Of a stretch of 64,000 nt of DNA, positions 7,404 through 56,532 are shown one piece after another. Positions within the stretch are counted from its first letter, which is position 1. Each line of letters begins with the position of its first letter. This DNA is from an uncultured bacterium (GTDB taxonomy: Bacteria > Fidelibacterota > Marinisomatia > Marinisomatales > Marinisomataceae): positions 137,371-201,370 of the forward strand of contig CALSRE010000002.1 in the NCBI GenBank assembly GCA_943788675.1. Direction: 5' to 3'. The notes below the pieces were generated by a model, which worked only from the letters and a program-made list of their open reading frames with translations, was not told the DNA's origin and made no database searches. A program made the translations under genes and the position numbers.

Positions 7404-7969
7404 GATGACAGTTTCTTTACGGCTAAAAAGAGAGTTAAATTTCTCTTTAAATCATGAATATCTTTTTGCAGAATATTTAAACCATACTTTTCAGCTGAAA
7501 ACTTACTAGCTATTACGGCCACATTTTCAGATAATTTTCCTTCTGATAAATCTTGCGCTGCTTTTGCAGTATCATCTTCTTCAACAAGCTTTTTAGACCA
7601 AAACTGTTCAGCTAAATAATCTTTGCACTGCTTTAAGGCCTGTTGATGAGAATGAATTTCTTCAATATCTCCAAGAGCAACTCCATTCTTAGCTAGCAAA
7701 TTTTGGCTAATCTCAATATAAAACATATCAATTATTTCGCATTGATTTTTTGCTAAAGCTTCGATGCTTTCAATTACTACCCCGCCCTGTGCATTTTCCA
7801 TTGCAAAAATGCCTGTATCAATACTTCCATCTGTCAGACTGTTTAATACATTCATTGAACCAACCAAATAAGCTAATTCAAAGTCGTCTATACCAAATTT
7901 TTTACAATACGATTTAGCTGCTTGCTCGCTAAAACTACCTTCTATTCCCTGAATTCCTACTTTAATCAT
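7400..7969 (-). CDS. pheA: prephenate dehydratase, catalytic PDT domain only (no ACT domain)
   Basis: Contains GIQGIEGSFSEQAA, FAMENAQGGVV, SHQQALKQC and NLTLFL(AV), which match PDT-domain landmarks. At 189 aa there is no room for the C-terminal ACT domain. Confidence 0.8.
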   Translation of the reverse strand: MIKVGIQGIEGSFSEQAAKSYCKKFGIDDFELAYLVGSMNVLNSLTDGSIDTGIFAMENAQGGVVIESIEALAKNQCEIIDMFYIEISQNLLAKNGVALGDIEEIHSHQQALKQCKDYLAEQFWSKKLVEEDDTAKAAQDLSEGKLSENVAVIASKFSAEKYGLNILQKDIHDLKRNLTLFLAVKKLSS

Positions 7970-8394
7970 TTTCTCTCCAATATATGCTCTATTGCTGTAA
8001 TATAACTTTGTTTACCTTCACCGTAAAATTGACCAATACAAACAGTTTTAATCACAGAAGTTTTTCTAAAATTTTCTCGTTTATGAATATTTGACAAATG
8101 CACTTCCACGGTCTTTAACTGCGTTGCTACTATTGCATCTCTTAATGCATAAGAATAATGCGTTAAAGCTCCTGCGTTAAGAATACAATAATCAACATCT
8201 TTTCTTTTTTGGTGTAAAAAATCTATAATACTTCCTTCTGAATTTGACTGAAAAAATTCAAAATCAATATCTTGGCAACTATCGTGGTTTTTGATCCAAT
8301 TATTAACTTCCTCAAGAGAGTCGTATCCATAAATCTCTGGCTCTCTTTCTCCAAGCAAGTTAAGGTTAGGTCCATTTACAATAATTATTTTCAT
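7966..8394 (-). CDS. aroQ: 3-dehydroquinate dehydratase, type II
   Basis: IIVNGPNLNLLGEREPEIYG and LNAGALTHYSYALRDA motifs. Confidence 0.93.
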   Translation of the reverse strand: MKIIIVNGPNLNLLGEREPEIYGYDSLEEVNNWIKNHDSCQDIDFEFFQSNSEGSIIDFLHQKRKDVDYCILNAGALTHYSYALRDAIVATQLKTVEVHLSNIHKRENFRKTSVIKTVCIGQFYGEGKQSYITAIEHILERK

Positions 8395-9461
8395 AATACT
8401 TTTAAACTCTCAATAATTTGCTCAAATGATATATTGTCATTTATTTGTGACTTTCCAATCTCATCCAACAAAATAAATTTTACATTTGAAGCTCTGATTT
8501 TCTTGTCACTTTTAATATAGGTCATAAACTTATCATAATCTTCAATACTTACTGATGGTAGATCAAATTTTGATAATAAATATAAAGATTTATTGTACTC
8601 ATTGTTTGAAAGATTTCCATACTTATTTGATAAATATAAAGCACATTTCATCCCATAAAAAATTGCTTCTCCATGCAACAAAGTTCTGTAGTCAAAATAT
8701 CCCTCGATTGCATGTCCTACAGTATGTCCAAAATTCAATATCATTCGTAACTCATTTTCATTGACATCCTCACTAACAACATCGCTTTTTATCTCACAAC
8801 ACTGTATGATGATTTTTTCTAAAATTTTTATTGATTTATTTTCTATAATATTATCAATACTTGAAGCGATAAAATCAAATAATTCTCTATCATAAATAAA
8901 ACCATATTTTATTGCTTCTGCTAGAGCTGCATTTATTTGCCTATCTGGAAGTGTTAATAAAAAATTGATATCTATTTCAACCGCTTTTGGTTGATAAATC
9001 CTTCCAACAAGATTTTTGCCACTTTTAAGGTTAATACCAGTTTTACCTCCAATAGAAGAATCTACCATAGCTAATAATGTAGTAGGATATTGAACATAAT
9101 CAATTCCTCTCATATAAACTGAAGCAGCAAATCCAGCAATATCACCTACAACTCCTCCGCCAACTGCAAGAACAATTGATGAACGATCAAAGTGTTCTGA
9201 AGCCATCTTGTTGGTAATTTGTGTAATTGTTTCAAATGATTTAGCTTGCTCTCCATCATCTATTAAATGAATACTGATATTTGATAACTTAGATAATTGA
9301 TCAAATTTTTCTTTATAAAGCTTGTAAATATTATCCTGGCTGATGAGCATACATTGAGATTTTGTTGAAGATGCAACATGCAATATTGAGCTTACAAAGC
9401 TATCAATCATGCTTATTTTATAGCTGTCTAAACCTAAATCTACTTTAATTTTATTAGCCAT
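8391..9461 (-). CDS. aroB: 3-dehydroquinate synthase
   Basis: GGGVVGDIAGFAA, the NLVG segment (GKNLVGRIYQP) and FGHTVGHAIE motifs. I chose the start at the ATG at 9461 (MANKIKV...). The 33-codon extension in the track lies inside aroK. Confidence 0.9.
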   Translation of the reverse strand: MANKIKVDLGLDSYKISMIDSFVSSILHVASSTKSQCMLISQDNIYKLYKEKFDQLSKLSNISIHLIDDGEQAKSFETITQITNKMASEHFDRSSIVLAVGGGVVGDIAGFAASVYMRGIDYVQYPTTLLAMVDSSIGGKTGINLKSGKNLVGRIYQPKAVEIDINFLLTLPDRQINAALAEAIKYGFIYDRELFDFIASSIDNIIENKSIKILEKIIIQCCEIKSDVVSEDVNENELRMILNFGHTVGHAIEGYFDYRTLLHGEAIFYGMKCALYLSNKYGNLSNNEYNKSLYLLSKFDLPSVSIEDYDKFMTYIKSDKKIRASNVKFILLDEIGKSQINDNISFEQIIESLKVL

Positions 9462-9963
9462 TAACAAACTCCATAATCTTATCACAGTTATCACTAAGAG
9501 AATTTCTGTCAGTATCAACCTCACAGCTTGATAAAGAAAGATATAATTCTTTTCGTTCATTAAAAATCTTTTCTAACAACTGATGCTTGTTATTTTCTTT
9601 AAGTAATGGTCTTGAAGAGTCACCTTCGAGTCTATCTGTCAATACTTGCATAGATGTTTTGAGATAAATACAACACATACTAGCCATCAAATCATAACTC
9701 TTCTTAAATGTAACTGCTCCACCACCAACGGCTAAAACAATATTATTTCTTGATGAATATTTTTTTATTTCATCATATTCAAATTCTCTAAATTGTACTT
9801 CGCTTTTACTAAAAAGCTCATTAATTGATAAATTTTGCTTATTTATAATTTCTTGATCGATATCTATAAAACTCCATCCAAGCTTTTCTGAAAGCATTTT
9901 TCCGGTTGAAGATTTTCCAGATCCCATCATCCCAATTAAACAAAGTTGATTAGTATTTTCCAC
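9454..9963 (-). CDS. aroK: shikimate kinase
   Basis: Walker A motif LIGMMGSGKSSTGK and a size of 169 aa. Confidence 0.9.
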   Translation of the reverse strand: MENTNQLCLIGMMGSGKSSTGKMLSEKLGWSFIDIDQEIINKQNLSINELFSKSEVQFREFEYDEIKKYSSRNNIVLAVGGGAVTFKKSYDLMASMCCIYLKTSMQVLTDRLEGDSSRPLLKENNKHQLLEKIFNERKELYLSLSSCEVDTDRNSLSDNCDKIMEFVNG

Positions 9964-11110
9964 TGCTCTTGATATGTTTTTTTAATTGCTCCATGCTATC
10001 TCCACCAAATTTTTCTAATAAAGCGTCAGCTAAAACAATAGCTAACATGCTCTCACCAATAATTGATGCTGCAGGAACAGCGCAAGAATCGGTTCTTTCT
10101 TTATGTGCAAGCTTGGGCTCCATATTGGTTAGATCGATTGATCTGAGCGGCTTTATAAGCGTAGAAATGGGCTTCATGCTCACTTTTACGTGTATGGGCT
10201 GAGCATTGCTCATTCCTCCTTCAATACCTCCGGCATTGTTGCTTGCTCTCACGATTTTATCATTCTCATATAATATTTCATCATGTAATTCACTACCAAA
10301 TGCAGCAGAAGAGGCAAATCCGGCTCCAACTTCTACTCCTTTAAAAGCATTTACAGACATCATTGCCTGAGATATTCTTGCCTGCAATTTTCCATCTGCG
10401 TTAATATAGCTTCCTAACCCGTATGGCATACCTTTTGCAATAACTTCAAAAGATCCTCCAACAGAATCTCCGTTACTTTTGGCTTGATCAATAACTTCTA
10501 TCATTCTGTTCTCAGCCTCTTTATCTAAACATCGAACGGAGGATTTATCAGCTAAACTGTTCAATTTTGACATGCTTAAATCTTCATCTAATGCTTTAGA
10601 ATCTATGACATCATGAATTTGATAGACTCTGCTCCCAATTTGTATTCCAACCTCTTCTAATAGTTTTCTACAAACTGCACCAATCGCAACCCTCATCGCA
10701 GTTTCTCTAGCAGATGATCTTTCAAGAACATTTCTAATATCATCAAAATCATATTTCATTACTCCAGCTAAATCAGCATGACCAGGTCTTGGCATCGTAA
10801 CTTTTTTATGGTCTTTTTTTGGTTTACCAACAGCCATTCTATCTTCCCAATTAACCCAATCTAAATTTTTAATAATTAAAGAAATTGGCGATCCTAAAGT
10901 AACCTGATGTCTAACGCCGGAGAAAATTTCAGCAAAATCTTTTTCAATTTTCATTCTCTTTCCCCTACCGTGACCCTGCATTCTTCTAAGCAAATCAATT
11001 GATATATATTCCTCGGTAAGCTCTAAACCTGCAGGTATTCCTTCAATGATTCCTGTCAGCCCTTTTCCATGCGATTCGCCAGCAGTCATATATGATATCT
11101 TCTTTAACAT
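9950..11110 (-). CDS. aroC: chorismate synthase
   Basis: TAGESHGKGL, RPGHADL and ERSSARETA signatures. Confidence 0.95.
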   Translation of the reverse strand: MLKKISYMTAGESHGKGLTGIIEGIPAGLELTEEYISIDLLRRMQGHGRGKRMKIEKDFAEIFSGVRHQVTLGSPISLIIKNLDWVNWEDRMAVGKPKKDHKKVTMPRPGHADLAGVMKYDFDDIRNVLERSSARETAMRVAIGAVCRKLLEEVGIQIGSRVYQIHDVIDSKALDEDLSMSKLNSLADKSSVRCLDKEAENRMIEVIDQAKSNGDSVGGSFEVIAKGMPYGLGSYINADGKLQARISQAMMSVNAFKGVEVGAGFASSAAFGSELHDEILYENDKIVRASNNAGGIEGGMSNAQPIHVKVSMKPISTLIKPLRSIDLTNMEPKLAHKERTDSCAVPAASIIGESMLAIVLADALLEKFGGDSMEQLKKHIKSSGKY

Positions 11111-11925
11111 ATTATTTTCTCCAATTGTTTAATAATGGAATCAATTTTTGAATTCACATTATAGGTAGTTTCATTCCAAATTTCAATAGACTTCAATGCT
11201 TGAAATATTAGCATATCTAGACCATTAACTTTTTTTCCGTTAGTTTCAAATCTATTTAAAAACATTGTTGATTTAGAAGTGTAAATAAGATCTATTAAAT
11301 CAGCATTATCATTGACAGCAAAGTCAAAAAAATTATCACTATCGTTCATTGAATACATTCCAAGAGGAGTTGTATTAATAATCAATTCACAAGTTGAATG
11401 CTGCTTCCTAAATAAAACAATGTTATCATAGCCTAATTCTTTGGCAAATTCTATAACTTCAAGTGCATTTTTTTCACTTTTATTTTTAACAACAATCTCT
11501 CTTGCTTCTGAATCAATCAACGATTTAATAATAGTTTTTGCAGAAGAGCCTGCGCCTAAAACCATGCATTTTTTATTCTTTACTGCAATACCGTTTCTTG
11601 AACAAAGCATATCAAAACCATATTTGTCTGTATTGTATCCTTTTAAAATACCTTCTTTCATTGAAATACAATTAACATTATTTAGTATTTTCGCCTCGTG
11701 ATTAAGCTCATCCAAATAACCAATTACTTCATTCTTAAAAGGAATAGTAACATTTAACCCATTATAAGATGTTATTACTTTTTCAAAGAAGCTATCTAGC
11801 TCACGTTCAGTTAGTTTAATTTTTTCAAGAAAACAATCCTTAATATCTAGTTCTTTGTACAAAACTTTGTGCAATTCTGGGCTAATACTTTTAGAAACTG
11901 GATTACCTATTAATGCATATTTCAT
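11104..11925 (-). CDS. aroE: shikimate 5-dehydrogenase
   Basis: IGNPVSKSISP, NVTIPFK and VLGAGSSAK (NADP-binding) motifs. Confidence 0.9.
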   Translation of the reverse strand: MKYALIGNPVSKSISPELHKVLYKELDIKDCFLEKIKLTERELDSFFEKVITSYNGLNVTIPFKNEVIGYLDELNHEAKILNNVNCISMKEGILKGYNTDKYGFDMLCSRNGIAVKNKKCMVLGAGSSAKTIIKSLIDSEAREIVVKNKSEKNALEVIEFAKELGYDNIVLFRKQHSTCELIINTTPLGMYSMNDSDNFFDFAVNDNADLIDLIYTSKSTMFLNRFETNGKKVNGLDMLIFQALKSIEIWNETTYNVNSKIDSIIKQLEKIIC

Positions 11926-13172
11926 TCAGCTACTCTTTTTATCAAATTAAAGAAGTTTGGTAATGAAATATCGATGCAATCTTTGTTATCTAGATGATAT
12001 TTTCCAAACGATGTTAAGCTCAAGATTGTGAAAGCCATAGCTATTCGATGATCATGAAAAGTTGTAATTTCAGCTAACTTATCAGGCTTACCTCCCTCGA
12101 CAAAAAGACTGTTATCTTTTTCGTAAGCATTAATTCCAAAAGCATTAAGATTATGTATAATTGCGTGCAACCTATCACATTCTTTATATTTTAATTCTTC
12201 TATATTTCGAAATATTGTAATGCCATTAGAGTATGCTGCTACAACAGATAAAATAGGTATCTCATCTATGATTGAAGGAATTATTTCAGACTCTACTTCT
12301 ACCGAAGTTAGATCAGAAGTGCTAAAAGTTATATCTCCGGTCTTTTCACCATTATTCAACTGTTTATTGCCCACAGCTAAATTGCAATTCATTTTTTTTA
12401 GGACGTCAATAAATCCAATTCTAGTTTTATTCAACAGCACATTATTAAGAGTTAATTCTGAGTTATCATTTATTACGGCTATAGCTGCAAAAAAAGCTGC
12501 AGATGATGGATCTGAAGGAATTGTTATATTAATAGGATTAAGTTTATTTTTTAGAGGATAAATATTAATACTTTTGTCTATAAAACTAATAGTTGCGCCC
12601 ATATTTTTTAACATAACCTCTGTATGATTTCTTGTTAAAATATTCTCATGAACTGTTGATGGACTATCTCCTCCTAAGGCGGCTAGCAAAATACATGATT
12701 TGACTTGTGCGCTAGCAACAGGAATTTTATAATCAATAGAGCGTATTCCTTCTTTAGCATTTATGGTCAATGGCAACAAATTATCGTTAGAAGAAATATC
12801 ACAACCCATTTTTTGCAATGGAGTGATAATACGTTTCATTGGCCTAGAAGACAATGAGCTATCTCCAACAAGAGTAAAATCTAATTTTTGTGAAGATAGG
12901 AGCCCTGAAATTAGTCTTGTTGTTGTTCCAGAATTTCCACAATCTAATTTTTCATTTGGGTTAGTTAATTCTACCCCCTCAATAGTAATAGTTTGATTTC
13001 TACTATCAATTTTAGCTCCGCAGGCTTTTAATGCATTGATTGTTGATTGTAAGTCAGCACCATCATTCAAATTCCTAATGGTACTTTTTCCATCTGCAAT
13101 AGATGAAAGCATTATTGCGCGATGAGAAATTGACTTATCTCCCGGTAAATATAATGTTCCTTTAACTTGCAT
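11922..13172 (-). CDS. aroA: 3-phosphoshikimate 1-carboxyvinyltransferase (EPSP synthase)
   Basis: LPGDKSISHRA, CGNSGTTTRL and DHRIAMAF motifs. Confidence 0.95.
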   Translation of the reverse strand: MQVKGTLYLPGDKSISHRAIMLSSIADGKSTIRNLNDGADLQSTINALKACGAKIDSRNQTITIEGVELTNPNEKLDCGNSGTTTRLISGLLSSQKLDFTLVGDSSLSSRPMKRIITPLQKMGCDISSNDNLLPLTINAKEGIRSIDYKIPVASAQVKSCILLAALGGDSPSTVHENILTRNHTEVMLKNMGATISFIDKSINIYPLKNKLNPINITIPSDPSSAAFFAAIAVINDNSELTLNNVLLNKTRIGFIDVLKKMNCNLAVGNKQLNNGEKTGDITFSTSDLTSVEVESEIIPSIIDEIPILSVVAAYSNGITIFRNIEELKYKECDRLHAIIHNLNAFGINAYEKDNSLFVEGGKPDKLAEITTFHDHRIAMAFTILSLTSFGKYHLDNKDCIDISLPNFFNLIKRVAE

Positions 13173-14513
13173 TTATTTCTTTAATTTTTCTGCAATGTTA
13201 AATGAAAGCTCTAAAGCTTGGTTCGCATTTAATCTTGGATCACAATGAGTATGATATCTAGAGTTCAAATCATCATCTCCAACCTTATAAATTCCTCCAG
13301 TACATTCAGTAACGTTCTGACCGGTCATTTCTAGATGAATACCTCCAAGATGTCTTTCTTTCGACTTTAAAATTTCAATGGCTTTACTTGTTTCATTCAA
13401 AAGTGAGTTAAAGTCTCTTGTTTTTAGACCTGACGATGACTTAACTGTGTTGCCGTGCATAGGATCTGATATCCATAATACATTCTTTTTATGCTTTACT
13501 ATAACATCAACCAATTCAGGGAGATACTTATCAATACTTTCTTCTCCATACCTAAAAATAAGTGAAATCTTTCCTGGATCATTGGTAGGATTAATTTTAT
13601 CTATTATTTTGATAAGCTCTTGATTATCAAGGCTAGGGCCGCATTTAATACCAATCGGATTGCTAATGCCGCTACAGTACTCAACATGTGCACTATCAAT
13701 AAAACGAGTTCTATCACCTATCCATATAAAATGTGCTGAAGTACAATATATTTCATTAGAAAGTGAATCAACTCTGGTTAAAGCTTCTTCGTATGGAAGA
13801 TGTAAGCCTTCATGACTAGTGTAGAAGTCAACAGTATTTAAATCAATTACAGTTGAAGTATTTACACCAACCGCGTCCATAAAATCTAAATATTCATTAA
13901 TTTTACCAGCAATCTCTTCATATCTCTTTCCTTCTTCGCTAGCTTTTACAAATCCCATATTCCAGGAATTAACTTTACGCAAATTTGCAAAGCCTCCTTG
14001 AGCAAAAGATCGCAATAAATTCAATGTTGAAGCTGACTGTGAATAAGCTCTTAACAGTCTTGCAGGATTTGGTTCACGTTTTTCTTCAGAAAACTCTATT
14101 CCGTTGATTGAATCGCCATAATAGCTATTTAATGTCTTTCCATTAACAGTTTCACGATCCGAAGATCTAGGTTTTGCAAATTGTCCAGCGATTCTTCCAA
14201 GCTTGATTACTGGAACTTTTAATTTAGCTGTAATAACTGCACTCATTTGCAGAATAACCCTAAAAGTGTCTCTAATATTATTTGCATTGAATTCTTTGAA
14301 ACTTTCTGCACAATCACCTCCCTGCACCAAAAATCCATCTCCATTACTTGCCTTAGCTAGTTCTTGCTTTAAATTTCTACACTCTCCAGCAAATACTAGA
14401 GGAGGAAAACCTTCAAGTTTTTTTAATGCTTTTTCAAGCTGTTTTACATCATTATACTCCGGAATATGTTTAATGGTAAAATTTTTCCATGAATCTTTTG
14501 TCCATTTTGACAT
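13173..14513 (-). CDS. 3-deoxy-7-phosphoheptulonate (DAHP) synthase, class II
   Basis: 446 aa with PPLVFAGECRNL and GFLVQGGDCAESF, which are characteristic of class II (plant/actinobacterial type) DAHP synthases. Confidence 0.9.
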   Translation of the reverse strand: MSKWTKDSWKNFTIKHIPEYNDVKQLEKALKKLEGFPPLVFAGECRNLKQELAKASNGDGFLVQGGDCAESFKEFNANNIRDTFRVILQMSAVITAKLKVPVIKLGRIAGQFAKPRSSDRETVNGKTLNSYYGDSINGIEFSEEKREPNPARLLRAYSQSASTLNLLRSFAQGGFANLRKVNSWNMGFVKASEEGKRYEEIAGKINEYLDFMDAVGVNTSTVIDLNTVDFYTSHEGLHLPYEEALTRVDSLSNEIYCTSAHFIWIGDRTRFIDSAHVEYCSGISNPIGIKCGPSLDNQELIKIIDKINPTNDPGKISLIFRYGEESIDKYLPELVDVIVKHKKNVLWISDPMHGNTVKSSSGLKTRDFNSLLNETSKAIEILKSKERHLGGIHLEMTGQNVTECTGGIYKVGDDDLNSRYHTHCDPRLNANQALELSFNIAEKLKK

Positions 14514-14773
14514 TATAATTCCTCGACTTTCTTTGATTCTGTAATGATAGATTTATAGATAGGTTTTAAAAATGAAGCTTCTACAGTAGAAAACCTTGCA
14601 TCAATTTTAGCATAAATTGCATTTTCTCTTTCTTGGTCTAAGACTGGTAGTCCTTCTTGTTTTTTGATATACCCTATTGTATTTACCGCATCTAATCTTT
14701 CTAATAATAAGTCAAAAATTTGATTATCAGCTTTATCTATTCTATATCTGTTTTCTAATATTTTTTTGTTCAT
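14513..14773 (-). CDS. chorismate mutase (AroQ class, monofunctional)
   Basis: RIDKADNQIFDLLLERLDAVNTIGYIKK is a typical CM_2 helix. I prefer the ATG at 14773 (MNKKIL...) because the GGAGG SD lies inside the first codons of the track ORF (ATGGAGGAAAAAATG). Confidence 0.85.
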   Translation of the reverse strand: MNKKILENRYRIDKADNQIFDLLLERLDAVNTIGYIKKQEGLPVLDQERENAIYAKIDARFSTVEASFLKPIYKSIITESKKVEEL

Positions 14774-14790
14774 TTTTTCCTCCATATAAC

Positions 14791-17397: not shown

Positions 17398-18378
17398 TTA
17401 ATTCATGAGATTTTTTAAAAAAAAATCAGCAGCAAATTGAAATGATTGTCCTCTAGCATCGTCATTTCCACCCATCGTTGGTCCTCTTCCTGCGCAAGTT
17501 AATAATGCCAACTTTTGTCTTATAGGAGTGTTGATTGGAATATTCCAAAATTCGCTTAGAAATAAAGTGCCTTGATCATCCATTGGAAAGAAACAATCTC
17601 CAAGTGTATATCCATTCTCCATTGTGGTTAACTCCATTTCTCTATCAAAAGAGTGGTGAGCATCTTCATATATAGTAATATCTATATTATGCGGTAATCC
17701 ACTTTCATTTAACTTGCCTAAAAGATTTGTACATGCAGAGGCAGGCACCCAGTCATCTAATTCTCCAATGAGAATATGTACAGGTGCTTGACTAAAAATC
17801 ATGGACTCTGCTGGGTGAGGATATGCTAAACACCCTGGATAAATTGGTAAGTGAGCAGCAAATCTAAATTCTCCATTATCTATAGCATTTATTAATGGCA
17901 TCCAGGCAGAATATAATGACACAGTGCCACCTAAACTCCATCCAGTTATTCCAACTCTATTAATATCGATATTCGAATGTGTAGATAGTGTTTCAAGGGC
18001 AAGATAGCTATCAAGAATCATCATGGCAGATGTAACTTCTACCTGACTACCAACTGTAGACTGAATGTCTCTACTGTCAAAACTTTGCAATTGAAACGTG
18101 GCAAACCCCAATGAACGATACATTTCTAAATACTTTAAATGATGAGATCCCCAATTTAAGCTTCCAGCAACACCAATAATTAATGGATATTTTATATCTG
18201 AATCAAAATTTTCTGGAAAAGTTAAAGCGCCAAAAACAGTTTGTTTCTCTTGATTATTTAAATCAGTGATTATCTCTTCAAAAGAAAAAGGATTTGCACT
18301 TTCAAAAGTAATTATTTCATTTAAAGATTCCTGTGCAATTAAAAACGAACTAATTAATAACAACGTCAACTTTTTCAT
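17398..18378 (-). CDS. secreted alpha/beta hydrolase (dienelactone hydrolase-like)
   Basis: Signal peptide, a GWSLGG nucleophile elbow, and distal Asp/His candidates (ELDDWV, AHHSF). Confidence 0.7.
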   Translation of the reverse strand: MKKLTLLLISSFLIAQESLNEIITFESANPFSFEEIITDLNNQEKQTVFGALTFPENFDSDIKYPLIIGVAGSLNWGSHHLKYLEMYRSLGFATFQLQSFDSRDIQSTVGSQVEVTSAMMILDSYLALETLSTHSNIDINRVGITGWSLGGTVSLYSAWMPLINAIDNGEFRFAAHLPIYPGCLAYPHPAESMIFSQAPVHILIGELDDWVPASACTNLLGKLNESGLPHNIDITIYEDAHHSFDREMELTTMENGYTLGDCFFPMDDQGTLFLSEFWNIPINTPIRQKLALLTCAGRGPTMGGNDDARGQSFQFAADFFLKNLMN

Positions 18379-19217: not shown

Positions 19218-19529
19218 TTACAGCTTTACAGCTGTTCCATAAATGAAAATTTCAGAAGCTCCTGCTTGAAGCATTGAAGTTGTAAAACGTACCCCAACGA
19301 TGGCATCCGCATTCATCTCTTCTGCTCTTAAAATCATTCTATCCATTGCTTGCTGTCTAGACTCAGCCATTAGCTTTGAATATTCAGTTATTTCTCCACC
19401 AACAACATTTCTAAGTCCAGCCAAAATATCTTTTCCTAAATGTCGCGCTCTTATAGATTGACCGCTTACAACTCCTAACACTTTTGACACTGATTTATTT
19501 TCAATTTTTTCTTGAGTGGTTATAATCAT
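19218..19529 (-). CDS. YbjQ/UPF0145 family protein
   Basis: 103 aa containing LGVVSGQSIRARHLGKDILAGLRNVVGGEI.EY...R..A...M...A...GA.AIVGVRF, characteristic of YbjQ_1. Confidence 0.85.
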   Translation of the reverse strand: MIITTQEKIENKSVSKVLGVVSGQSIRARHLGKDILAGLRNVVGGEITEYSKLMAESRQQAMDRMILRAEEMNADAIVGVRFTTSMLQAGASEIFIYGTAVKL

Positions 19530-19732
19530 TACTTATCAATCTCCTTTGAATAGTATGAATCTTCTTTATTATTTAAACGATCTTTGAGCACCTTGATAAA
19601 TAGTATAAGCAATCCTGATGAAGCCAATAAAAGCAATAAACCATCAGGATAAAAAACTTCAACATCAGCAATGATAAAGTTGATTATCAATACATAAAAT
19701 CCAATTAACAATATATACCCTAATTTTTCCAT
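19529..19732 (-). CDS. small 2-TM membrane protein, unknown function
   Basis: I chose the internal ATG (MEKLGYILLIGF...) because the longer track ORF would overlap the divergent TlpA-like gene start. The protein is hydrophobic, and its stop overlaps the YbjQ start by 1 nt. Confidence 0.4.
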   Translation of the reverse strand: MEKLGYILLIGFYVLIINFIIADVEVFYPDGLLLLLASSGLLILFIKVLKDRLNNKEDSYYSKEIDK

Positions 19733-19784
19733 ACAAGACAATTTAAGTAGTTTATTTAAAAAAACTATAATATTATCAGGAACT

Positions 19785-20414
19785 ATGGACGCAAAAAAAC
19801 TATATGTTATCATCCTAGGAATGGGAATTGCTCTTGCTTTTTTAGGCTATAAATATGTTACCACAAATAATGATTTAAAAAAATACAAGGGGTACTATAA
19901 AGACCTTTCTATTACATATTTGAATGAGATTATGCAAGCACCGGCATTAGAGCCATCTTTAAAAGATGGGAATATTATTTCTATAGATTTTGAAACCAAT
20001 GCTTTGCAATTCACTAATCTTGATAACAAAATGTTTTCAATCCAAGATTTTAAAGGAAAAACTCTTTTTATTAATTATTGGGCTACTTGGTGCAATCCTT
20101 GCTTAGCTGAAATGCCTTCAATGGCTGACTTATATGAACGTTACAGCAGCAATGATGCTATCGTTTTCTTATATCTCTCAAGAGAAGAACTAAAAACAAT
20201 TCAAGAATACATTCCTAAAGATGAATCGCTTCAAAAACTTCCAATATATAAAGTCGTTACAGATGATGAATTTTTTGCCACTACTGGAATTCCAACAACT
20301 TTTATTATTAATTCAAGCGGAGATCTGATTGTCAAAGATGTCGGAAGTGCATTTTGGAATGACCAATCAGTATTTAATTTTATCGATAACTTATTAGGAA
20401 TTGATGAAGTCTAA
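19785..20414 (+). CDS. TlpA/ResA-like thiol:disulfide oxidoreductase (membrane anchored thioredoxin fold)
   Basis: N-terminal TM segment and a WATWCNPC (CxxC) active site. An AGGA SD lies 5 nt upstream and TATAAT lies at 19766-19771. Confidence 0.85.
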   Translation: MDAKKLYVIILGMGIALAFLGYKYVTTNNDLKKYKGYYKDLSITYLNEIMQAPALEPSLKDGNIISIDFETNALQFTNLDNKMFSIQDFKGKTLFINYWATWCNPCLAEMPSMADLYERYSSNDAIVFLYLSREELKTIQEYIPKDESLQKLPIYKVVTDDEFFATTGIPTTFIINSSGDLIVKDVGSAFWNDQSVFNFIDNLLGIDEV

Positions 20415-21999
20415 TATTTTAATTAATACAGATAATAAATTTCCATATTTAGGCAATGGTATCAATTTCGATGAAAAACTTTTTGGGTTAACCTTTGATG
20501 CTTCATTGATACAAAAAACATCTGAACTCATTTGGAAACCAAACTCAACGCTTCCATATTCGACTTTAAAGAAACTTCCAGCTCCCTATACTTGCTTATC
20601 TGATATAGCAGAAGAAATGGCAGTAAATAATTTTGGTAAGACAGGGTTGATTGGTAAAAATTCATTACTTGAAGAAGTCAAAGCATTGGACGATTCCTTG
20701 ATGGATAGATTTATTTTAGATGTTCAAAATCATATTACACACCCAACGCATGAATCAGCTGAGCTTATAGCTAATGTGAGATGTTGGTCTTCTTGGCTTG
20801 CTAATGGTGTAAAAATTGAACCTATTTTTAATGGAAGCAAAAAAGCGTGTTCATTCATTCCATGGCCTCTATCTGGCTTACTCTTACTTTCATCTAGAAT
20901 CATTGGGCAACAACCGGAGTTTGAATATGCTGCTGACTATGTTTTAAGGTCAGGTATTTTACCAAAAGATGAATTAGATGACTACAGCGATATAAATCAA
21001 AATATTGACTATATAAGATCAATAAAGCCTGTAGTTGCTTTTCATGATTTTGACGGAAATGAACAAGGCTTTAGAATGACCCATCTTGCGATGGAACGAA
21101 CTTCTCAAATGATGATAGAAAATGCATTATTTGGAGTGGAAAATGAAGATATCAAAGAGAATCTTGAAAAGATTGAACTAGCAACAATGCAATCTAATCA
21201 ATTGTTCAATGCAATGTGGAAAGTAAGCGAGCCTTTACTTTACAACAAAGAAGTTAGAATCTTTATTCAAGGGCTTTTTGGAAATCAAGGCAGTATCTAT
21301 TCAAATAATGGTCTCTTTTTTGAAAAATGTGGTGATAGATATAGTGAAGAATTTAAAGCCAGTGGTTTATTTATTTCAGATTTGCACGGTCAAACGGGTG
21401 CAAATAGCTCCTACCATCCAATTGCTGATGAGATTACAGGAGTTGGTGATCATACGCATGCTTACATAGCAGATAAGCATGTTGACAACTCAATTATTAA
21501 AAGCGTTCTTGAAAAAGGATATGTTGGTGCTAGCGATTTGCCTAAGGATGCTAATGTAGACTCTCTTACAAAGCTTTTAAAATCATTCAGAGTTGGATAT
21601 AGACCACCAGCACATCATAGTATGATTGTAAGAACAAGAAATATTCTTCAAAATTCTGATTATTTTTCCAGAATTGAGTCAAATAACGAATATAAAAAAA
21701 TACTGGCCAGTTCAGTTAGATGGATTATTCAGCACAGAATAGATCATTATAAAATGGTAGTCAGCTATATATTAAGAGCGCCAGATCCGTATAAACATCA
21801 AACCAAAGCAAAAGGTACTGGCGGAACACCTACTCCAACCTTCCTTCCAAAGATGTTTACGCATAGCATTGATAGGCTTCAAAATTTAGTTGAAAATGAA
21901 AATCTACCATGGGCTGATAAGTTAATCAATATTACTTCTAATCATGAAACTGCGATGCAGCAATTTCAAAAAATTGCTCTTGAATCAGAAACAGATTAA
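20404..21999 (+). CDS. indoleamine 2,3-dioxygenase (IDO)-like heme dioxygenase
   Basis: The C-terminal half aligns by eye with landmark segments of human IDO1: GQTGANSS ~ GGSAGQSS, YRPPAHHSMI ~ YMPPAHRNFL, RIDHYKMVVSYIL ~ RSYHLQIVTKYIL (proximal heme His conserved), and AKGTGGT is identical. The ATG at 20404 overlaps the upstream gene by 11 nt. Confidence 0.8.
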   Translation: MKSNILINTDNKFPYLGNGINFDEKLFGLTFDASLIQKTSELIWKPNSTLPYSTLKKLPAPYTCLSDIAEEMAVNNFGKTGLIGKNSLLEEVKALDDSLMDRFILDVQNHITHPTHESAELIANVRCWSSWLANGVKIEPIFNGSKKACSFIPWPLSGLLLLSSRIIGQQPEFEYAADYVLRSGILPKDELDDYSDINQNIDYIRSIKPVVAFHDFDGNEQGFRMTHLAMERTSQMMIENALFGVENEDIKENLEKIELATMQSNQLFNAMWKVSEPLLYNKEVRIFIQGLFGNQGSIYSNNGLFFEKCGDRYSEEFKASGLFISDLHGQTGANSSYHPIADEITGVGDHTHAYIADKHVDNSIIKSVLEKGYVGASDLPKDANVDSLTKLLKSFRVGYRPPAHHSMIVRTRNILQNSDYFSRIESNNEYKKILASSVRWIIQHRIDHYKMVVSYILRAPDPYKHQTKAKGTGGTPTPTFLPKMFTHSIDRLQNLVENENLPWADKLINITSNHETAMQQFQKIALESETD

Positions 22000-27170: not shown

Positions 27171-27873
27171 CTAAATAATCTCCAAAATCCAAAAAGCCAA
27201 ACTTTTAAAACAGCCTCCAAGCATAACTGCTTTACTCATTTTGGATTCACCTACAGTTCTATCAGTAAAAACTATTGGATGTTCAACCAATTTACAACCT
27301 TTTTGGTATGCTCTAAATGAAGTCTCGATTTGAAAGCAATAACCTTGAGAGGAGCATTCATTATATTTAATTTTTTTAAGTGTACTCAACCTCTCCAAGC
27401 TTTAAATCCTGCAGTTAAATCTTTCACAGGTACACCTGTAATTATCTTAGCGTACAAATTTGCAAAATAACTGATATACAATCCTTTGAATTGGCCAATT
27501 AATAACTCTCAATCCACCTTTATATCTACTACCTATTACAAGATCATTTTTATCTAAAAGACTAAACATAGGTACAATTTCAATCGGATCATGTGATAAA
27601 TCTGCATCCATTTGAATGATTTTATCGTAGTTGTTTTTGATAGACCAATTAAACCCGTCAACGTATGCTGAACCAAGGCCTTTCTTTAGCTTCTCTTTTT
27701 AAGATAAAAATTTTATCATTTTTCAATCCTTCAACAATGCCAGATGTATCATCAGGTGAATTATCATCTATAACAAGAATATTAACATCTATATTTTGTT
27801 TGAAAATCAAATCTATTGTTTTAATAATGTTTTTTGATTCATTGTAGGTTGGAAGAATGACTAAATTTTTCAT
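27171..27873 (-). pseudogene. GT2 polyprenol-phosphate mannosyltransferase (Dpm1-like), interrupted by at least 3 frameshifts
   Basis: The N-terminal fragment is LPTYNESKNI...VIDDNSPDDT. By my translation the middle piece is in another frame (GLGSAYVDGFNWS...QMDADLSHDP...GSRYKGG), then YFANLYAKIITGVPVKDLTAGFKAWRG, then the C-terminal fragment SQGYCFQIE... Frame changes occur near 27683, 27475 and 27397. Confidence 0.7.
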
Positions 27874-30300: not shown

Positions 30301-32082
30301 TCAAATTTTGAGAACGGCTAATAAGGCTTCTTGCGGAACTTCAACTCTGCCAATTGTACGCATTCTTTTCTTACCCTTTTTCTGCTTTTGAAGCAATTTA
30401 TTCTTTCTAGTTACATCTCCACCGTAGAGCTTTTCAGTAACATTTTTTCTGAAAGGAGCAATATTTGTTCTTGCAATTACTCTAGTACCTATCGATGCTT
30501 GAATAGGAATCTGTATTTGATGTCTTGGAATTAATTCTTTTAATTTTTGACATAAGGCTAGACCTCTATGGTAAGAGTCTTTTTTTGAACAAATCATTGA
30601 TAAGGCATCAACTGGCTCTTTATTTATTAAAATGTCCAATTTATCTAACTTGCTCTCTTTATATTCTTTAAAAGTATAATCAAATGATGCATACCCTTTT
30701 GAACCAGATTTAATTCTATCATAAAAATCAAAAAGTATTTCTCCAAGAGGGAGATCATAGATGAGCTGTACCTTAGATTTAGATAAATATTGAGTAGATT
30801 TATATTTTCCTCTTTTTTCTTCACAAATCTTCATGACATTACCAATATAATCTACAGGAGTTAAAATTTCTGCTGTCACTATAGGCTCCATTAAGCTCTC
30901 CAAGAATTTTGGTTCTGGTAACAATGCAGGTCTTTGAACCTCTTCTTGAGTGCCATCTTTTAGATTTGCTAAATATTTAACATTAGGACTAGTGGTGACA
31001 ATGGATAAATTAAACTCTCTTTCAAGTCTTTCTTGGATTATTTCCATGTGCAATAACCCTAAAAAGCCACATCTATAGCCAAAACCAAGGGCATCGCTTA
31101 CCTCAGGCTCAAAAGAAAGTGATGCGTCATTAAGTTTCAATTTTTCAAGTGCAGTCCTAAGATCATCATACTCTCCCGCATCTGCTGGAAAAAGTCCTGA
31201 AAAAACCATGGGTTTTATTTTTTGAAATCCCGGTAAAGCTTCTTTACATGGTTTATTAAAATTTGTAACTGTATCACCAGCAAGAACATGTTCAATGTCT
31301 CTAACATTTGCGATTATATAGCCTACTTCTCCTGCTTTGATTGAATCAGATTTTTTTCTATCAATAATAAAATGTCCAACTTCATCAACATCATAATGAG
31401 TATCATGCGCAAAAAATTTAATTCTACTTCCCTTTTTTCAAGGAACCTTCATAAACCCTCACATAAGCTACAACACCTCTATATCTATCATAAATTGAAT
31501 CAAAAATTAAACCTTTAAATTCTTCATTTTTTGGTTCTTCTGGAGCGAGGAATTTTTGAAGTAATTGCATTCAAAATATCTTCTATCCCTTCGCCTGTTT
31601 TAGCGCTAGCAAGTAAAATATCTTCCTTATTACATCCTACCATTTCAATAATTTGCGCTGTGACATTTTCAATATCAGCATTCGGTAAATCTACTTTATT
31701 AATCACAGGAATTATTTCAAGATCATTTTCAAGAGCTAATAAATAATTTGTGACTGTCTGAGCTTCAATACCTTGTGCTGCATCAACAATTAATAAGGCG
31801 CCTTCACTCGCAGATAAAGTTCTTGAAACTTCGTATGTAAAATCTACGTGACCAGGTGTATCAATTAAATTTAATATAAAGTCTTTATAGCTAATTCTAA
31901 TGGAATGACTTTTAATTGTAATTCCTCTTTCTCTTTCAAGCTCCATGTTGTCAAGAACTTGATTCTGCATTTTCTTTTTTGAAATTGTTCCTGTATGCTC
32001 AAGCAATCTATCTGCTAAGGTAGACTTACCGTGATCATATGTGCAATAATGCAAAAATTTCTAATGGTTTTGTGCTATTCAT
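30301..32082 (-). pseudogene. lepA: translation elongation factor 4 (LepA), interrupted by about 4 frameshifts
   Basis: The fragments cover a full-length LepA: IRNFCIIAH / [12 protein letters not shown] / DTPGHVDF / NKVDL, then [30 protein letters not shown], then SRIKFFAHDTHYDV...MVFSGLFP...C-terminus. Frame changes occur at the T/A runs 32068-32071 and 31433-31438, near 32037 and near 31550. Confidence 0.85.
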
Positions 32083-56040: not shown

Positions 56041-56532
56041 ATGTCAAAAACAACTCTCTATGATATTGCTAATGAATTTGAAAAATCATTAGAAAATCTG
56101 CTTGATCATGATGATTTAGATCTAATCAAAGAAATTGAAGCCATTGAAGGTGAATTCAAATCAAAGTCGACTAATGTAGCTAAATATATTAGAAACCTTG
56201 AACATTTATCTTCTGGAATAAAAGAAATTGAATCAAACCAAAAAAAGAGAAGAATCACTTTAGAAAAAAAAATTCAACGTTTAAAAGATTATTTAAGAGT
56301 TAATTTTGAAAAAACAAATACTGATAGACTAGAAAGTGAAGATATAGTAATTGCTATCTATAAAAACCCTATTAAGGTGAATGTCGTTGATGAAGATCTT
56401 ATCCCTGAAGAGTTTTTCAATATAAATGAAAATAAAGTGCTAAATAAAGATATGATAAAAGAATCTTTACAAAATGGTAGTAATGTTCCAGGCTGTGAAT
56501 TAATTCAAGAAAAAAGGGTAAATATAAAGTAA
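56041..56532 (+). CDS. Siphovirus Gp157-family protein (phage-derived)
   Basis: TLYDIANEFEKSLENLLD...IEAIEGEFKSKSTNVAKYIRNLE...LEKKIQRLKDYL...IYKNPIKVNVVDEDLIPEEF...LQNGSNVPGCELIQEKRVNIK follows the Sipho_Gp157 family pattern end to end. Confidence 0.75.
   Translation: MSKTTLYDIANEFEKSLENLLDHDDLDLIKEIEAIEGEFKSKSTNVAKYIRNLEHLSSGIKEIESNQKKRRITLEKKIQRLKDYLRVNFEKTNTDRLESEDIVIAIYKNPIKVNVVDEDLIPEEFFNINENKVLNKDMIKESLQNGSNVPGCELIQEKRVNIK

What the first reader, a model, noticed from the sequence alone, without database searches (positions are those of the whole stretch)
19785..21999. Bacterial indoleamine 2,3-dioxygenase-like heme protein translationally coupled to a membrane-anchored TlpA-like thioredoxin
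The 531-aa ORF shows the hallmark C-terminal IDO segments. These include the proximal heme histidine context (RIDHYKMVVSYIL vs human RSYHLQIVTKYIL), YRPPAH (vs YMPPAH) and an identical AKGTGGT. It also has an N-terminal region that is about 130 aa longer than in animal IDO. Its ATG (20404) overlaps the last 11 nt of a CxxC (WATWCNPC) thiol:disulfide oxidoreductase carrying an N-terminal TM anchor. IDO homologues are sporadic in bacteria and mostly uncharacterised. I do not know of any described function for pairing with a periplasm-facing redox protein. No other kynurenine-pathway gene is visible in the window, so the substrate may not be tryptophan.
Basis: partly seen in the sequence, partly recalled or inferred. 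Interest (0 to 1): 0.6.

Follow-up and report, generated by a model that had tools for sequence, protein, structure and literature searches.

The report
Divergent IDO-like heme enzyme, thioredoxin neighbour
A marine Marinimicrobia (SAR406) bacterium carries a real but very divergent, uncharacterised relative of the tryptophan-cleaving heme enzyme IDO; it always sits behind a membrane-anchored thioredoxin gene in this lineage, but that pairing looks like an inherited operon rather than a working partnership.

Summary
Both ORFs, the quoted motifs and the 11-nt overlap are real. The 531-aa protein belongs to the IDO family. It scores 38.4 bits on Pfam PF01231 against a cutoff of 26, and its AlphaFold model matches only human IDO1 (TM 0.64-0.75). 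The proximal His, the carboxylate Arg and the GTGG Thr are all kept.

It falls in an uncharacterised 'long' clade found in Marinimicrobia, scattered other bacteria and marine protists. In this clade IDO1 Ser167 is His, Cys129 is Tyr, Phe164 is Arg and Gly262-Ser263-Ala264 is Gln-Thr-Gly. The resulting Tyr/Tyr/Phe/His/Arg/Thr set mirrors the tryptophan-binding residues of TDO. I therefore favour L-tryptophan, or a close analogue, as the substrate, at moderate confidence.

The extra 128 residues are spread along the protein and are not one N-terminal block.

The ResA/TlpA-like thioredoxin lies directly upstream in every intact Marinimicrobia locus examined, and the reverse also holds. It is absent from copies in other bacteria. 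Half of the same-strand gene junctions in the window overlap, so the overlap is ordinary. The thioredoxin domain is predicted to be periplasmic and the enzyme cytoplasmic, so direct redox partnership is unlikely.

No kynurenine-pathway gene is present in the window. Overall this is a moderately interesting, untested variant of a known enzyme family.

The parts
19733..19784 (.). AT-rich 52-nt divergent spacer between the small membrane-protein gene (minus strand) and the thioredoxin gene. It is the presumed promoter region of the two-gene operon and contains TATAAT at 19766-19771 and AGGA at 19778-19781.
   Evidence: Sequence read. The promoter scan found no more matches than shuffled sequence, so the promoter is inferred and not shown.
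19785..20414 (+). Gene for a 209-aa TlpA/ResA-family thiol:disulfide oxidoreductase.
   Evidence: Pfam Redoxin, AhpC-TSA and Thioredoxin_8 all above cutoff. NCBIfam ResA and TlpA models match but fall below their equivalog cutoffs. Nearest solved structures are ResA 4nmu (E 1.5e-20) and TlpA 1jfu. NCBI names relatives 'TlpA family protein disulfide reductase'.
19791..19862 (+). N-terminal hydrophobic segment of the thioredoxin (residues 3-26), read as a signal anchor. There is no Cys, so no lipobox.
   Evidence: Kyte-Doolittle maximum of 1.75 over 19 residues starting at residue 8. The N-in/C-out topology is inferred from the ResA/TlpA family.
20091..20102 (+). Active-site CxxC (C103-N-P-C106) within the invariant motif FINYWATWCNPCLAEMP.
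   Evidence: Invariant across 12 orthologues at 56-100% identity. Codons verified.
20396..20399 (+). Shine-Dalgarno-like AGGA, 4 nt upstream of the IDO-like start codon and inside the 3' end of the thioredoxin gene.
20404..21999 (+). Gene for a 531-aa IDO-family heme protein of the 'long', distal-His clade. It has no signal peptide. Its stop codon overlaps the convergent DPP-IV gene's stop by 4 nt.
   Evidence: Pfam PF01231 at 38.4 bits against a cutoff of 26. PDB profile hit to IDO1. AF2 model pTM 0.82. The top 50 Foldseek hits are all human IDO1. All homologues begin MK..., which supports ATG 20404 as the start.
20926..20940 (+). Y175 and Y179, at the positions of IDO1 Tyr126 and Cys129. They are comparable to the indole-packing Tyr42/Tyr45 of human TDO.
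   Evidence: Residue roles from PMC8518741.
21070..21084 (+). Distal-helix motif F223-R224-M-T-H227, at IDO1 Phe163, Phe164 and Ser167. His227 matches the distal His76 of TDO. Arg224 is specific to the long clade.
   Evidence: Invariant in A1 and A2. Residue table. The best-scoring PDB sequence hit is the IDO1 S167H mutant 6cxu.
21256..21258 (+). R285, equivalent to IDO1 Arg231, which binds the substrate alpha-carboxylate.
21391..21399 (+). Q330-T331-G332, which replace IDO1 Gly262-Ser263-Ala264 in the distal loop over the heme.
21745..21747 (+). H448, the predicted proximal heme ligand, equivalent to IDO1 His346.
   Evidence: The HMM alignment to IDO1 chains places H448 on H346. It is invariant in every tier examined.
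21814..21825 (+). [quoted passage not shown] T472 is equivalent to IDO1 Thr379, which binds the substrate ammonium and carboxylate groups.

Best explanation
The 531-aa ORF most likely encodes a cytoplasmic, heme b-binding oxygenase of the IDO family from a deep, uncharacterised 'long / distal-His' clade. Shown here: family membership, the IDO fold, and conservation of the proximal His (H448). Also conserved are all the residues that hold L-tryptophan in IDO1/TDO. These are Y175 and Y179 plus F223 for the indole ring, H227 for the indole N-H (as in TDO), and R285 and T472 for the carboxylate and ammonium groups. Inferred: ferrous heme binds O2, L-Trp or a very close indole amino acid docks in a TDO-like manner, and the 2,3-bond is cleaved to give N-formylkynurenine. 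The fate of the product is unknown, because no kynurenine-pathway gene is nearby. The upstream gene encodes a ResA/TlpA-type thioredoxin with a signal anchor, whose redox domain is predicted to face the periplasm. The two genes form a bicistronic unit that has been inherited intact throughout one Marinimicrobia lineage. The association is best explained by shared transcription in a very compact genome, not by direct electron transfer between the two proteins.
For: Family and fold: Pfam IDO is above its gathering cutoff. A clade profile hits IDO1 chains at E 2.8e-6 and aligns H448 to H346. The AF2 model has pTM 0.82. The top 50 Foldseek hits are all human IDO1 with TM 0.64-0.75. Pocket: Y126, F163, R231, R343, H346 and T379 are conserved, and S167->H, C129->Y, F164->R and GSA->QTG are found in all Marinimicrobia and long-clade members aligned. 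The roles of these residues in IDO1 and their TDO equivalents are given in PMC8518741. Purifying selection: homologues at 52-98% identity keep more than 190 invariant columns. Localisation: there is no hydrophobic N-terminus and the ORF cannot extend upstream. Operon: Trx lies directly upstream in every Marinimicrobia genome locus that has upstream DNA. It also lies upstream in 55 metagenomic Trx-orthologue loci, apart from two low-coverage chimeric contigs. The pair persists where both flanks have been rearranged. Against direct partnership: the IDO-like gene occurs without Trx in L016, L001 and five other bacterial contexts. Gene overlaps are the norm in this window, at 23 of 46 same-strand junctions. 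Only one Cys (C309) is invariant in the clade, so there is no conserved disulfide pair.
Against: No biochemical data exist for any member of this clade. According to Ternes & Schonknecht, only the mammalian/fungal/Gemmatimonas IDO branch turns tryptophan over efficiently, and tested members of the other branches were very slow (PMC4217691). Introducing His at position 167 damages human IDO1 activity (PMC8518741). The pocket gains an invariant Arg (R224) and a Gln (Q330), which no characterised Trp dioxygenase is known to carry. No formamidase, kynureninase or other pathway gene is present in the window. A diatom carries a homologue although diatoms are reported to lack the kynurenine route to NAD. 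The strict two-way co-conservation of Trx and the IDO-like gene is also what a real functional link would produce. The active-site loops of the model have low confidence (pLDDT below 50 at 209-223, 277-296, 328-334 and 460-481).
Confidence: 0.5

Rival explanations
1. The fold is the same but the chemistry or the substrate differs. The long clade's polar distal pocket (Arg224 three residues before His227, Tyr179, Gln330) adapts the enzyme either to an indole or aromatic substrate carrying an extra anionic group, or to peroxide-driven oxygenation. A distal Arg/His pair over a His-ligated heme is the catalytic pair of heme peroxidases (my own knowledge).
For: R224 and H227 are invariant in the Marinimicrobia and long-clade alignments. 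Shorter His-branch IDOs carry I, V or M at that position. Non-canonical IDO branches showed poor Trp turnover where tested. No kynurenine-pathway context is seen in the window or in any other locus examined. The homologue is present in a diatom, a group reported to lack the kynurenine pathway.
Against: The carboxylate Arg (R285) and the GTGG Thr (T472) that bind an alpha-amino acid are invariant, and the aromatic and His residues reproduce the TDO tryptophan set. The i,i+3 spacing differs from the i,i+4 spacing in peroxidases.
Confidence: 0.25
2. The thioredoxin and the IDO-like protein form a functional module. Possible forms are a shared response to oxidative or heme stress, or a role for the thioredoxin in maturing or supplying the heme enzyme.
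For: Adjacency is strict in both directions across 61-98% identity of the IDO-like protein, even where the flanking genes changed. This Trx orthologue group was not found anywhere without the IDO-like gene, and the next-best TlpA relatives are 37% identical or less. Spacing is tight, from an 11-nt overlap to a 5-nt or slightly larger gap. ResA-type proteins act in heme-protein (cytochrome c) maturation (my own knowledge).
Against: The predicted compartments differ: the Trx domain is periplasmic by family analogy, while the IDO-like protein has no export signal. The IDO-like gene persists alone after apparent horizontal transfer and in all other bacterial members. IDO enzymes bind heme b non-covalently and need no thiol chemistry (my own knowledge). 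There is no conserved Cys pair. Operon overlap is generic in this genome. The Trx scan relied on exact peptide patterns, so orthologues in Marinimicrobia that lack the IDO-like gene could have been missed.
Confidence: 0.15
3. The protein is a non-catalytic heme protein, acting as an O2/NO carrier or sensor like the IDO-derived myoglobins of abalone.
For: IDO-fold proteins have been recruited as myoglobins (PMC4191572). Some IDO paralogues have negligible activity.
Against: The substrate-binding Arg, the GTGG Thr and the aromatic pocket residues are invariant over wide divergence. That is not expected if no amino-acid substrate is bound.
Confidence: 0.05

Closest known systems
Human indoleamine 2,3-dioxygenase 1 (IDO1; e.g. 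PDB 5wmu, 6e46, 2d0t)
   Same: Same two-domain fold, matched across the whole protein (Foldseek TM 0.64-0.75). The proximal His (H346/H448), Arg231/R285, Arg343/R445, Tyr126/Y175, Phe163/F223 and the GTGG Thr379/T472 are shared. The YxPPAH and AKGTGGT motifs are shared.
   Different: Only 12-17% identity in the structural alignment. The substitutions are Ser167->His, Phe164->Arg, Cys129->Tyr and Gly262-Ser263-Ala264->Gln-Thr-Gly. There are 128 extra residues spread over the N-terminus, a 32-aa insertion and a C-terminal helix, and the JK loop is 14 aa shorter.
Tryptophan 2,3-dioxygenase (TDO; human, Xanthomonas)
   Same: The substrate-recognition residue set corresponds one for one: hTDO Tyr42/Tyr45/Phe72/His76/Arg144/Thr342 against Y175/Y179/F223/H227/R285/T472.
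   Different: There is no sequence-family match, because only Pfam IDO is hit, and all 50 Foldseek matches listed are IDO1. TDO is a tetramer whose Tyr residues come from a neighbouring subunit, whereas here they lie in the same chain.
Bacterial IDOs assayed by Yuasa, Ushigoe & Ball 2011 (Gemmatimonas aurantiaca, Streptomyces scabiei, Erythrobacter litoralis, Neptuniibacter caesariensis), as summarised in PMC4217691
   Same: They are bacterial members of PF01231. The IDO tree has several branches, each mixing bacteria and eukaryotes, as seen here.
   Different: As far as I know those proteins are of canonical length (my own knowledge). None is from Marinimicrobia, and no thioredoxin pairing is reported for them.
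Uncharacterised 'long' IDO-like proteins of other bacteria and of protists (Chromera velia Cvel_9005, Mayamaea pseudoterrestris MPSEU_000552600, a Neobodo transcriptome entry, and metagenomic proteins P0057, P0058, P0220)
   Same: They match over the full length, including the N-terminal extension (E 1e-66 to 1e-27). The active-site signature is identical, including Arg224. They form a clade with the Marinimicrobia proteins in 99-100 of 100 NJ bootstraps.
   Different: Identity is roughly 20-30%. They are 570-740 aa long, with further N-terminal extensions. No thioredoxin neighbour was found in any bacterial context examined.
ResA (Bacillus) and TlpA (Bradyrhizobium) thiol:disulfide oxidoreductases, for the upstream gene
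   Same: Thioredoxin fold, WCxPC active site, conserved cis-Pro loop (GIPTTF) and an N-terminal membrane anchor.
   Different: The scores are far below the NCBIfam equivalog cutoffs (74 against 170 for ResA; 66.6 against 230 for TlpA), so this is a family member and not an orthologue. No cytochrome c maturation or Cu-chaperone genes lie nearby.

Membership tests
Indoleamine 2,3-dioxygenase family (Pfam PF01231) | Profile match above the curated gathering threshold | tested here: met
   38.4 bits against a cutoff of 26, E 8.7e-10, covering residues 151-470. All 53 close homologues with a precomputed annotation also carry PF01231.
Indoleamine 2,3-dioxygenase family (Pfam PF01231) | Two-domain, mostly helical IDO fold | tested here: met
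   AF2 model with pTM 0.82. The top 50 Foldseek PDB hits are all IDO1, probability 1.00, TM 0.64-0.75 normalised to the target.
Indoleamine 2,3-dioxygenase family (Pfam PF01231) | Proximal heme-ligand histidine (IDO1 His346) | tested here: met
   H448 aligns to H346 in the HMM alignment and in the MAFFT alignment. It is invariant in every tier.
Indoleamine 2,3-dioxygenase family (Pfam PF01231) | Substrate amino-acid anchors: Arg231 and the GTGG-loop Thr379 | tested here: met
   R285 and T472 are invariant. Their roles are described in PMC8518741.
Indoleamine 2,3-dioxygenase family (Pfam PF01231) | Canonical mammalian-type distal pocket (Ser167, Phe164, Cys129, Gly262-Ser263-Ala264) | tested here: not met
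   The residues here are His, Arg, Tyr and Gln-Thr-Gly. This places the protein in a distinct branch but does not remove it from the family.
Indoleamine 2,3-dioxygenase family (Pfam PF01231) | Heme binding and O2-dependent cleavage of L-Trp to N-formylkynurenine | not testable with these tools
   This needs purified protein, heme spectra and product analysis.
Kynurenine-pathway gene cluster (kynA/IDO with kynB, kynU, or the NAD route genes) | Neighbouring formamidase, kynureninase, KMO, HAAO, ACMSD or QPRT genes | tested here: not met
   None was found in the 64-kb window or in the called genes of the related loci examined. Whole-genome presence could not be tested.
Tryptophan 2,3-dioxygenase family | Sequence or fold match to TDO | tested here: not met
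   There is no TDO Pfam hit, and all Foldseek hits listed are IDO1. Only the active-site residue set resembles TDO.
TlpA/ResA/DsbE-type extracytoplasmic thiol:disulfide oxidoreductases (upstream gene) | Thioredoxin-fold domain with a WCxxC active site and a cis-Pro loop | tested here: met
   Pfam Redoxin, AhpC-TSA and Thioredoxin_8 are above cutoff. WCNPC and GIPTTF are invariant. ResA and TlpA structures are hit at E 1e-20 to 1e-13.
TlpA/ResA/DsbE-type extracytoplasmic thiol:disulfide oxidoreductases (upstream gene) | N-terminal signal anchor that places the domain outside the cytoplasm | tested here: inconclusive
   A hydrophobic segment is present at residues 3-26. Its orientation is inferred from the family only, because charged residues flank both sides.
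TlpA/ResA/DsbE-type extracytoplasmic thiol:disulfide oxidoreductases (upstream gene) | Orthology to a named member (NCBIfam equivalog or subfamily cutoffs) | tested here: not met
   ResA scores 74.1 against 170, TlpA 66.6 against 230 and DsbE 31.3 against 123.
Heme peroxidases (considered because of the distal Arg/His pair) | Peroxidase fold or family match | tested here: not met
   There is no Pfam or structural match to any peroxidase. The resemblance is limited to two residues, whose geometry could not be checked.

The most novel reading that the evidence does not exclude
The long IDO-like clade may not be a tryptophan dioxygenase. Its invariant distal Arg224/His227/Tyr179/Gln330 pocket could support a different reaction, such as peroxide-dependent oxygenation or oxidation of an anionic indole or aromatic metabolite common in marine dissolved organic matter. 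In SAR406 the enzyme would then work as a conserved module with its dedicated TlpA-like thioredoxin. That would define a new enzymatic activity in one of the most abundant uncultured bacterial groups of the ocean, shared by gene transfer with marine protists.
Probability: 0.15. Interest if true: 0.75.

Novelty: new variant of a known kind. Interest (0 to 1): 0.42.

Why it matters
IDO and TDO are intensively studied heme enzymes, yet most of the IDO family tree outside animals and fungi has no assigned function, and the few bacterial members assayed outside the canonical branch were poor tryptophan dioxygenases. This locus defines a well-conserved clade that puts TDO-like tryptophan-binding residues, plus an extra Arg, on an IDO scaffold. 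The clade occurs in a globally abundant uncultured marine phylum, in scattered other bacteria and in several protist lineages. Characterising one member would show whether the distal-His IDO branch is a true tryptophan dioxygenase. It would also show how distal His and Arg residues tune heme-oxygen chemistry on this fold, and whether SAR406 degrades tryptophan aerobically. The thioredoxin pairing is a clean example of an operon conserved strictly within one lineage, and it should be tested for a functional link before one is assumed.

Tried and rejected
(1) A single-sequence phmmer search against the PDB found no IDO. A clade profile was needed.

(2) I first read the 570-740-aa middle-tier homologues as eukaryotic proteins with mitochondrial presequences. 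Context look-ups showed that P0057, P0058, P0220 and P0075 are bacterial. The group is therefore mixed, and the basic N-termini are not diagnostic.

(3) The promoter and terminator scan found no more matches than shuffled sequence, so it gave no information.

(4) The homology search with the thioredoxin listed only hits at 67% identity or more, so it could not show distant orthologues. The metagenome scan with an alignment replaced it.

(5) L092 and L093 looked like thioredoxin genes without an IDO-like neighbour. They turned out to be low-coverage contigs that break or fuse in the middle of the thioredoxin gene.

(6) The geometry of R224 and H227 could not be examined because the model coordinates are not exposed.

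(7) Literature searches for S167H, for Marinimicrobia or SAR406 with kynurenine, tryptophan or dioxygenase, and for bacterial IDO found nothing on this clade.

(8) I rejected the idea that the thioredoxin reduces the enzyme's heme or a disulfide in it. The predicted compartments differ and there is no conserved Cys pair.

(9) I rejected membership of the PrnB/MarE, TDO and peroxidase families, because there is no sequence or fold match.

(10) I considered a link to the nearby shikimate/Phe/Tyr operon. It lies on the opposite strand, four unrelated genes separate it from the pair, and it does not make or degrade tryptophan specifically.
Full report
OBSERVATION. The window is AT-rich (about 32% G+C) and densely packed with genes. 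A 209-aa ORF runs from 19785 to 20414 and a 531-aa ORF from ATG 20404 to 21999, both on the + strand. The ATG lies 11 nt before the end of the upstream gene, whose TAA occupies 20412-20414, and an AGGA sits 4 nt upstream of the ATG. All homologues begin with 'MK', which supports ATG 20404 over the TTG at 20401. The quoted motifs are present. The 3' end overlaps the stop codon of a convergent DPP-IV-like peptidase gene by 4 nt.

FAMILY OF THE LARGE ORF. Pfam places the protein in the IDO family (PF01231) at 38.4 bits, above the curated cutoff of 26, over residues 151-470. NCBIfam has no model for it. A single-sequence search of the PDB finds nothing, which shows how divergent it is. A profile built from 14 homologues hits human IDO1 chains at E 2.8e-6. 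That alignment places 'QHRIDHYKMVVSYIL' on 'SLRSYHLQIVTKYIL', so H448 matches the proximal ligand H346. It also places YRPPAH on YMPPAH and AKGTGGS/T on AKGTGGT. An AlphaFold2 model built from the same alignment has pTM 0.82 and mean pLDDT 77. Its 50 best Foldseek matches in the PDB are all human IDO1, aligned over about 460-480 columns with TM-scores of 0.64-0.75 normalised to IDO1. The first refutation criterion, failure of a profile search, is therefore not met. The second, loss of the heme-ligand His, is not met either.

WHERE THE EXTRA LENGTH LIES. I used human IDO1 as the numbering reference after confirming that the sequence I recalled is identical to PDB 5ek2_A. On that basis the 128 extra residues are distributed along the protein. 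About 40 are at the N-terminus, modelled as a small beta-sheet with high confidence. There are insertions at 74-80, 104-114, 197-206 and 316-325, a 32-aa insertion at 353-384, and a 34-aa C-terminal helix. The JK loop is 14 residues shorter than in IDO1.

ACTIVE SITE. A MAFFT alignment of 75 sequences gives the following mapping onto IDO1: Tyr126=Y175, Cys129->Y179, Phe163=F223, Phe164->R224, Ser167->H227, Arg231=R285, Gly262-Ser263-Ala264->Q330-T331-G332, Arg343=R445, His346=H448 and Thr379=T472. According to a structural review (PMC8518741), IDO1 packs the indole against Tyr126 and Phe163. It contacts the indole N-H through water to Ser167, and it holds the ammonium and carboxylate groups with Thr379 and Arg231. 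Human TDO uses Tyr42, Tyr45, Phe72, His76, Arg144 and Thr342 for the same purposes. The protein studied here therefore carries a TDO-like tryptophan-recognition set on an IDO scaffold. In line with this, the best-scoring PDB sequence is the IDO1 S167H mutant. The review also notes that S167H dampens IDO1 activity, so the natural His must work in a co-adapted pocket. The Arg at position 224 has no counterpart in characterised Trp dioxygenases. It lies three residues before H227 on the same helix. That recalls the distal Arg/His pair of heme peroxidases (my own knowledge), but the geometry could not be checked because the model coordinates are not exposed.

RELATIVES. The word-indexed search returned 54 proteins, all 52% identical or more. 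Those with names come from Candidatus Marinimicrobia MAGs and are called hypothetical. An exhaustive profile search of 1.84 billion representatives found 126 hits in three tiers. The first tier is this clade. The second is a set of 570-740-aa proteins that match over the full length, including the N-terminal extension (E 1e-66 to 1e-27). The third is a set of 375-550-aa proteins that match two internal stretches (E 1e-10 to 1e-3).

The second tier shares every active-site residue, including R224. It includes proteins from Chromera velia, the diatom Mayamaea pseudoterrestris, a Neobodo transcriptome and other EukProt entries. I first took this tier to be wholly eukaryotic, but gene-context look-ups corrected that. 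P0058, P0220, P0057 and P0075 sit among plainly bacterial genes: a MacB-type exporter with HicB; ftsH-folP-glmM-tpiA-secG; a type I restriction system; and glycosyltransferase with DUF420. P0196 lies in a eukaryotic context.

Most of the third tier also has His167, Tyr129 and [Q/E]-[T/S]-Gly, but carries Ile, Val or Met at position 164. It includes an Aplanochytrium protein annotated as IDO, a euglenid protein, and short bacterial proteins that JGI annotates as IDO (K00463), one of them from a Candidatus Actinomarinales MAG.

In bootstrapped NJ trees the Marinimicrobia clade is monophyletic in 100 of 100 replicates. It groups with the long clade in 99-100 of 100. The non-Marinimicrobia long proteins are monophyletic in 72 of 100, so the direction of transfer is unresolved.

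This matches the published picture of an IDO tree with several branches that each mix bacteria and eukaryotes. In that picture only the mammalian/fungal/Gemmatimonas branch is known to turn tryptophan over efficiently (PMC4217691; PMC4191572). I found no publication on the long clade or on IDO in SAR406.

THE THIOREDOXIN AND THE PAIRING. The upstream protein matches Pfam Redoxin, AhpC-TSA and Thioredoxin_8. It matches the NCBIfam ResA and TlpA models far below their cutoffs. Its nearest solved structures are ResA (E 1.5e-20) and TlpA. It has an invariant FINYWATWCNPCLAEMP active site, a conserved GIPTTF cis-Pro loop and a hydrophobic N-terminal segment. By analogy with its family, the redox domain faces the periplasm.

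In 36 species-representative genomes, all Marinimicrobia/Neomarinimicrobiota/Fidelibacterota apart from a few labelled only 'uncultured bacterium' and one labelled Flavobacteriaceae, the thioredoxin gene lies directly upstream of the IDO-like gene. This holds in every Marinimicrobia locus that has upstream DNA, at 61-98% identity of the IDO-like protein. It includes loci where the upstream YbjQ genes are replaced and loci where extra DNA separates the IDO-like gene from DPP-IV.

The reverse also holds. Among 55 metagenomic loci that carry an orthologue of the thioredoxin (49% identity or more), every one with enough downstream DNA has the IDO-like gene. The two exceptions are low-coverage contigs that break or fuse in the middle of the thioredoxin gene. 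The next-best TlpA relatives are 37% identical or less and have no IDO-like neighbour. The third refutation criterion, that the pair is not conserved in any relative, is therefore also not met.

Four observations argue against a direct partnership:

- A 76%-identical copy sits alone between sdhA and sdhB on a contig labelled Flavobacteriaceae (L016). The 52%-identical P0049 has no thioredoxin (L001). None of the other bacterial long-clade loci has one. The enzyme is evidently viable without it.
- In this window 23 of 46 same-strand junctions overlap. In relatives at 72% identity the two genes are separated by 5 nt. The overlap therefore reflects genome compaction and is not a special coupling device.
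- The IDO-like protein has no signal peptide and its ORF cannot extend upstream. The two proteins are therefore predicted to sit on opposite sides of the membrane.
- Only one Cys (C309) is invariant in the clade, so there is no conserved disulfide for a thioredoxin to reduce.

CONTEXT. No kynurenine-pathway gene occurs in the 64 kb. The only NAD-related gene is a glutamine-dependent NAD synthetase, which all NAD routes share. Ternes & Schonknecht report that diatoms use the aspartate route to NAD, yet a diatom carries a long-clade homologue. This hints that the clade's role is not NAD synthesis.

VERDICT. My best explanation, at confidence about 0.5, is a cytoplasmic heme b oxygenase that binds L-tryptophan or a close analogue in a TDO-like way and cleaves the indole ring. 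It is co-transcribed with a periplasmic ResA/TlpA-like thioredoxin in an operon that one Marinimicrobia lineage inherited as a unit. The main rival, at 0.25, is a different substrate or peroxide-dependent chemistry enabled by the Arg/His/Tyr/Gln pocket. A real thioredoxin-enzyme module is less likely, at 0.15. This is a new variant of a known enzyme family. It is uncharacterised and ecologically widespread, of moderate interest, and open to direct biochemical testing.

Noticed in passing
window 6690-14785 (minus strand): A complete shikimate plus Phe/Tyr biosynthesis gene string. It comprises prephenate dehydrogenase, prephenate dehydratase, type II dehydroquinase, DHQ synthase, shikimate kinase, chorismate synthase, shikimate dehydrogenase, EPSP synthase, class II DAHP synthase and chorismate mutase, mostly joined by 1-14-nt overlaps. 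It lies about 5 kb from the IDO-like gene on the other strand.
   Followed up: partly
window 30301-32054; 37153-39157; 27171-27873: Three genes appear split into separate ORFs. lepA is in two pieces, uvrB in three and a family-2 glycosyltransferase in two; the glycosyltransferase is an intact 236-aa gene in relative L002. The cause could be frameshifts from assembly errors or real pseudogenes.
   Followed up: no
window 56041-57838: A Siphovirus Gp157-domain gene and a PD-(D/E)XK nuclease gene sit directly after the pntA/pntB transhydrogenase genes. They may be a phage remnant.
   Followed up: no
L016 3476-6016: On a contig labelled Flavobacteriaceae, the IDO-like gene (76% identical) lies between sdhA and sdhB, together with a VOC/PhnB-like gene and a small membrane-protein gene. 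This looks like an insertion into the succinate dehydrogenase operon acquired by horizontal transfer. G+C content shows no anomaly.
   Followed up: partly
L122 6834-7691; window 17398-18378: In the bacterial locus that carries P0058, a dienelactone-hydrolase-fold protein with a lipoprotein-type signal (…GLSAC…) follows the long IDO-like gene on the same strand. The window also has a DLH-fold protein with an N-terminal signal-like sequence 1.4 kb upstream of the pair. The recurrence may be coincidental.
   Followed up: no
L124 5001-6923 (P0220): This proteobacterial long IDO-like protein begins with a stretch that looks like a Sec signal peptide (…RQAVKLGVVAALLFSPTSAF…). An RPE65-family carotenoid oxygenase gene follows it. 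Some members of the clade may be exported.
   Followed up: no
window 19529-19813 (minus strand): The 94-aa ORF that appears to overlap the thioredoxin start codon is probably a 67-aa membrane protein that starts at the internal Met near 19732. Relatives align only from residue 28, and the gene is called as 67 aa in L002. This leaves a 52-nt divergent spacer.
   Followed up: partly
L001 5189-5851: Two copies of a repeat whose translation reads 'MTFLNQTTIYVALSGLSVG…' fill the 1-kb gap upstream of the 52%-identical IDO-like gene. They resemble REP-type intergenic repeats.
   Followed up: no
window 46387-47787 (minus strand): A sodium:neurotransmitter symporter (SNF) family transporter. To my knowledge its bacterial members include amino-acid transporters for tryptophan, tyrosine and leucine. 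It is too distant from the pair to link the two.
   Followed up: no
L092, L093: Two low-coverage metagenomic contigs carry the thioredoxin gene truncated and joined to unrelated genes: a radical-SAM-like ORF in frame in one, and SRPBCC-like plus SDR genes in the other. They are probably assembly chimeras but could be real deletions that removed the IDO-like gene.
   Followed up: partly
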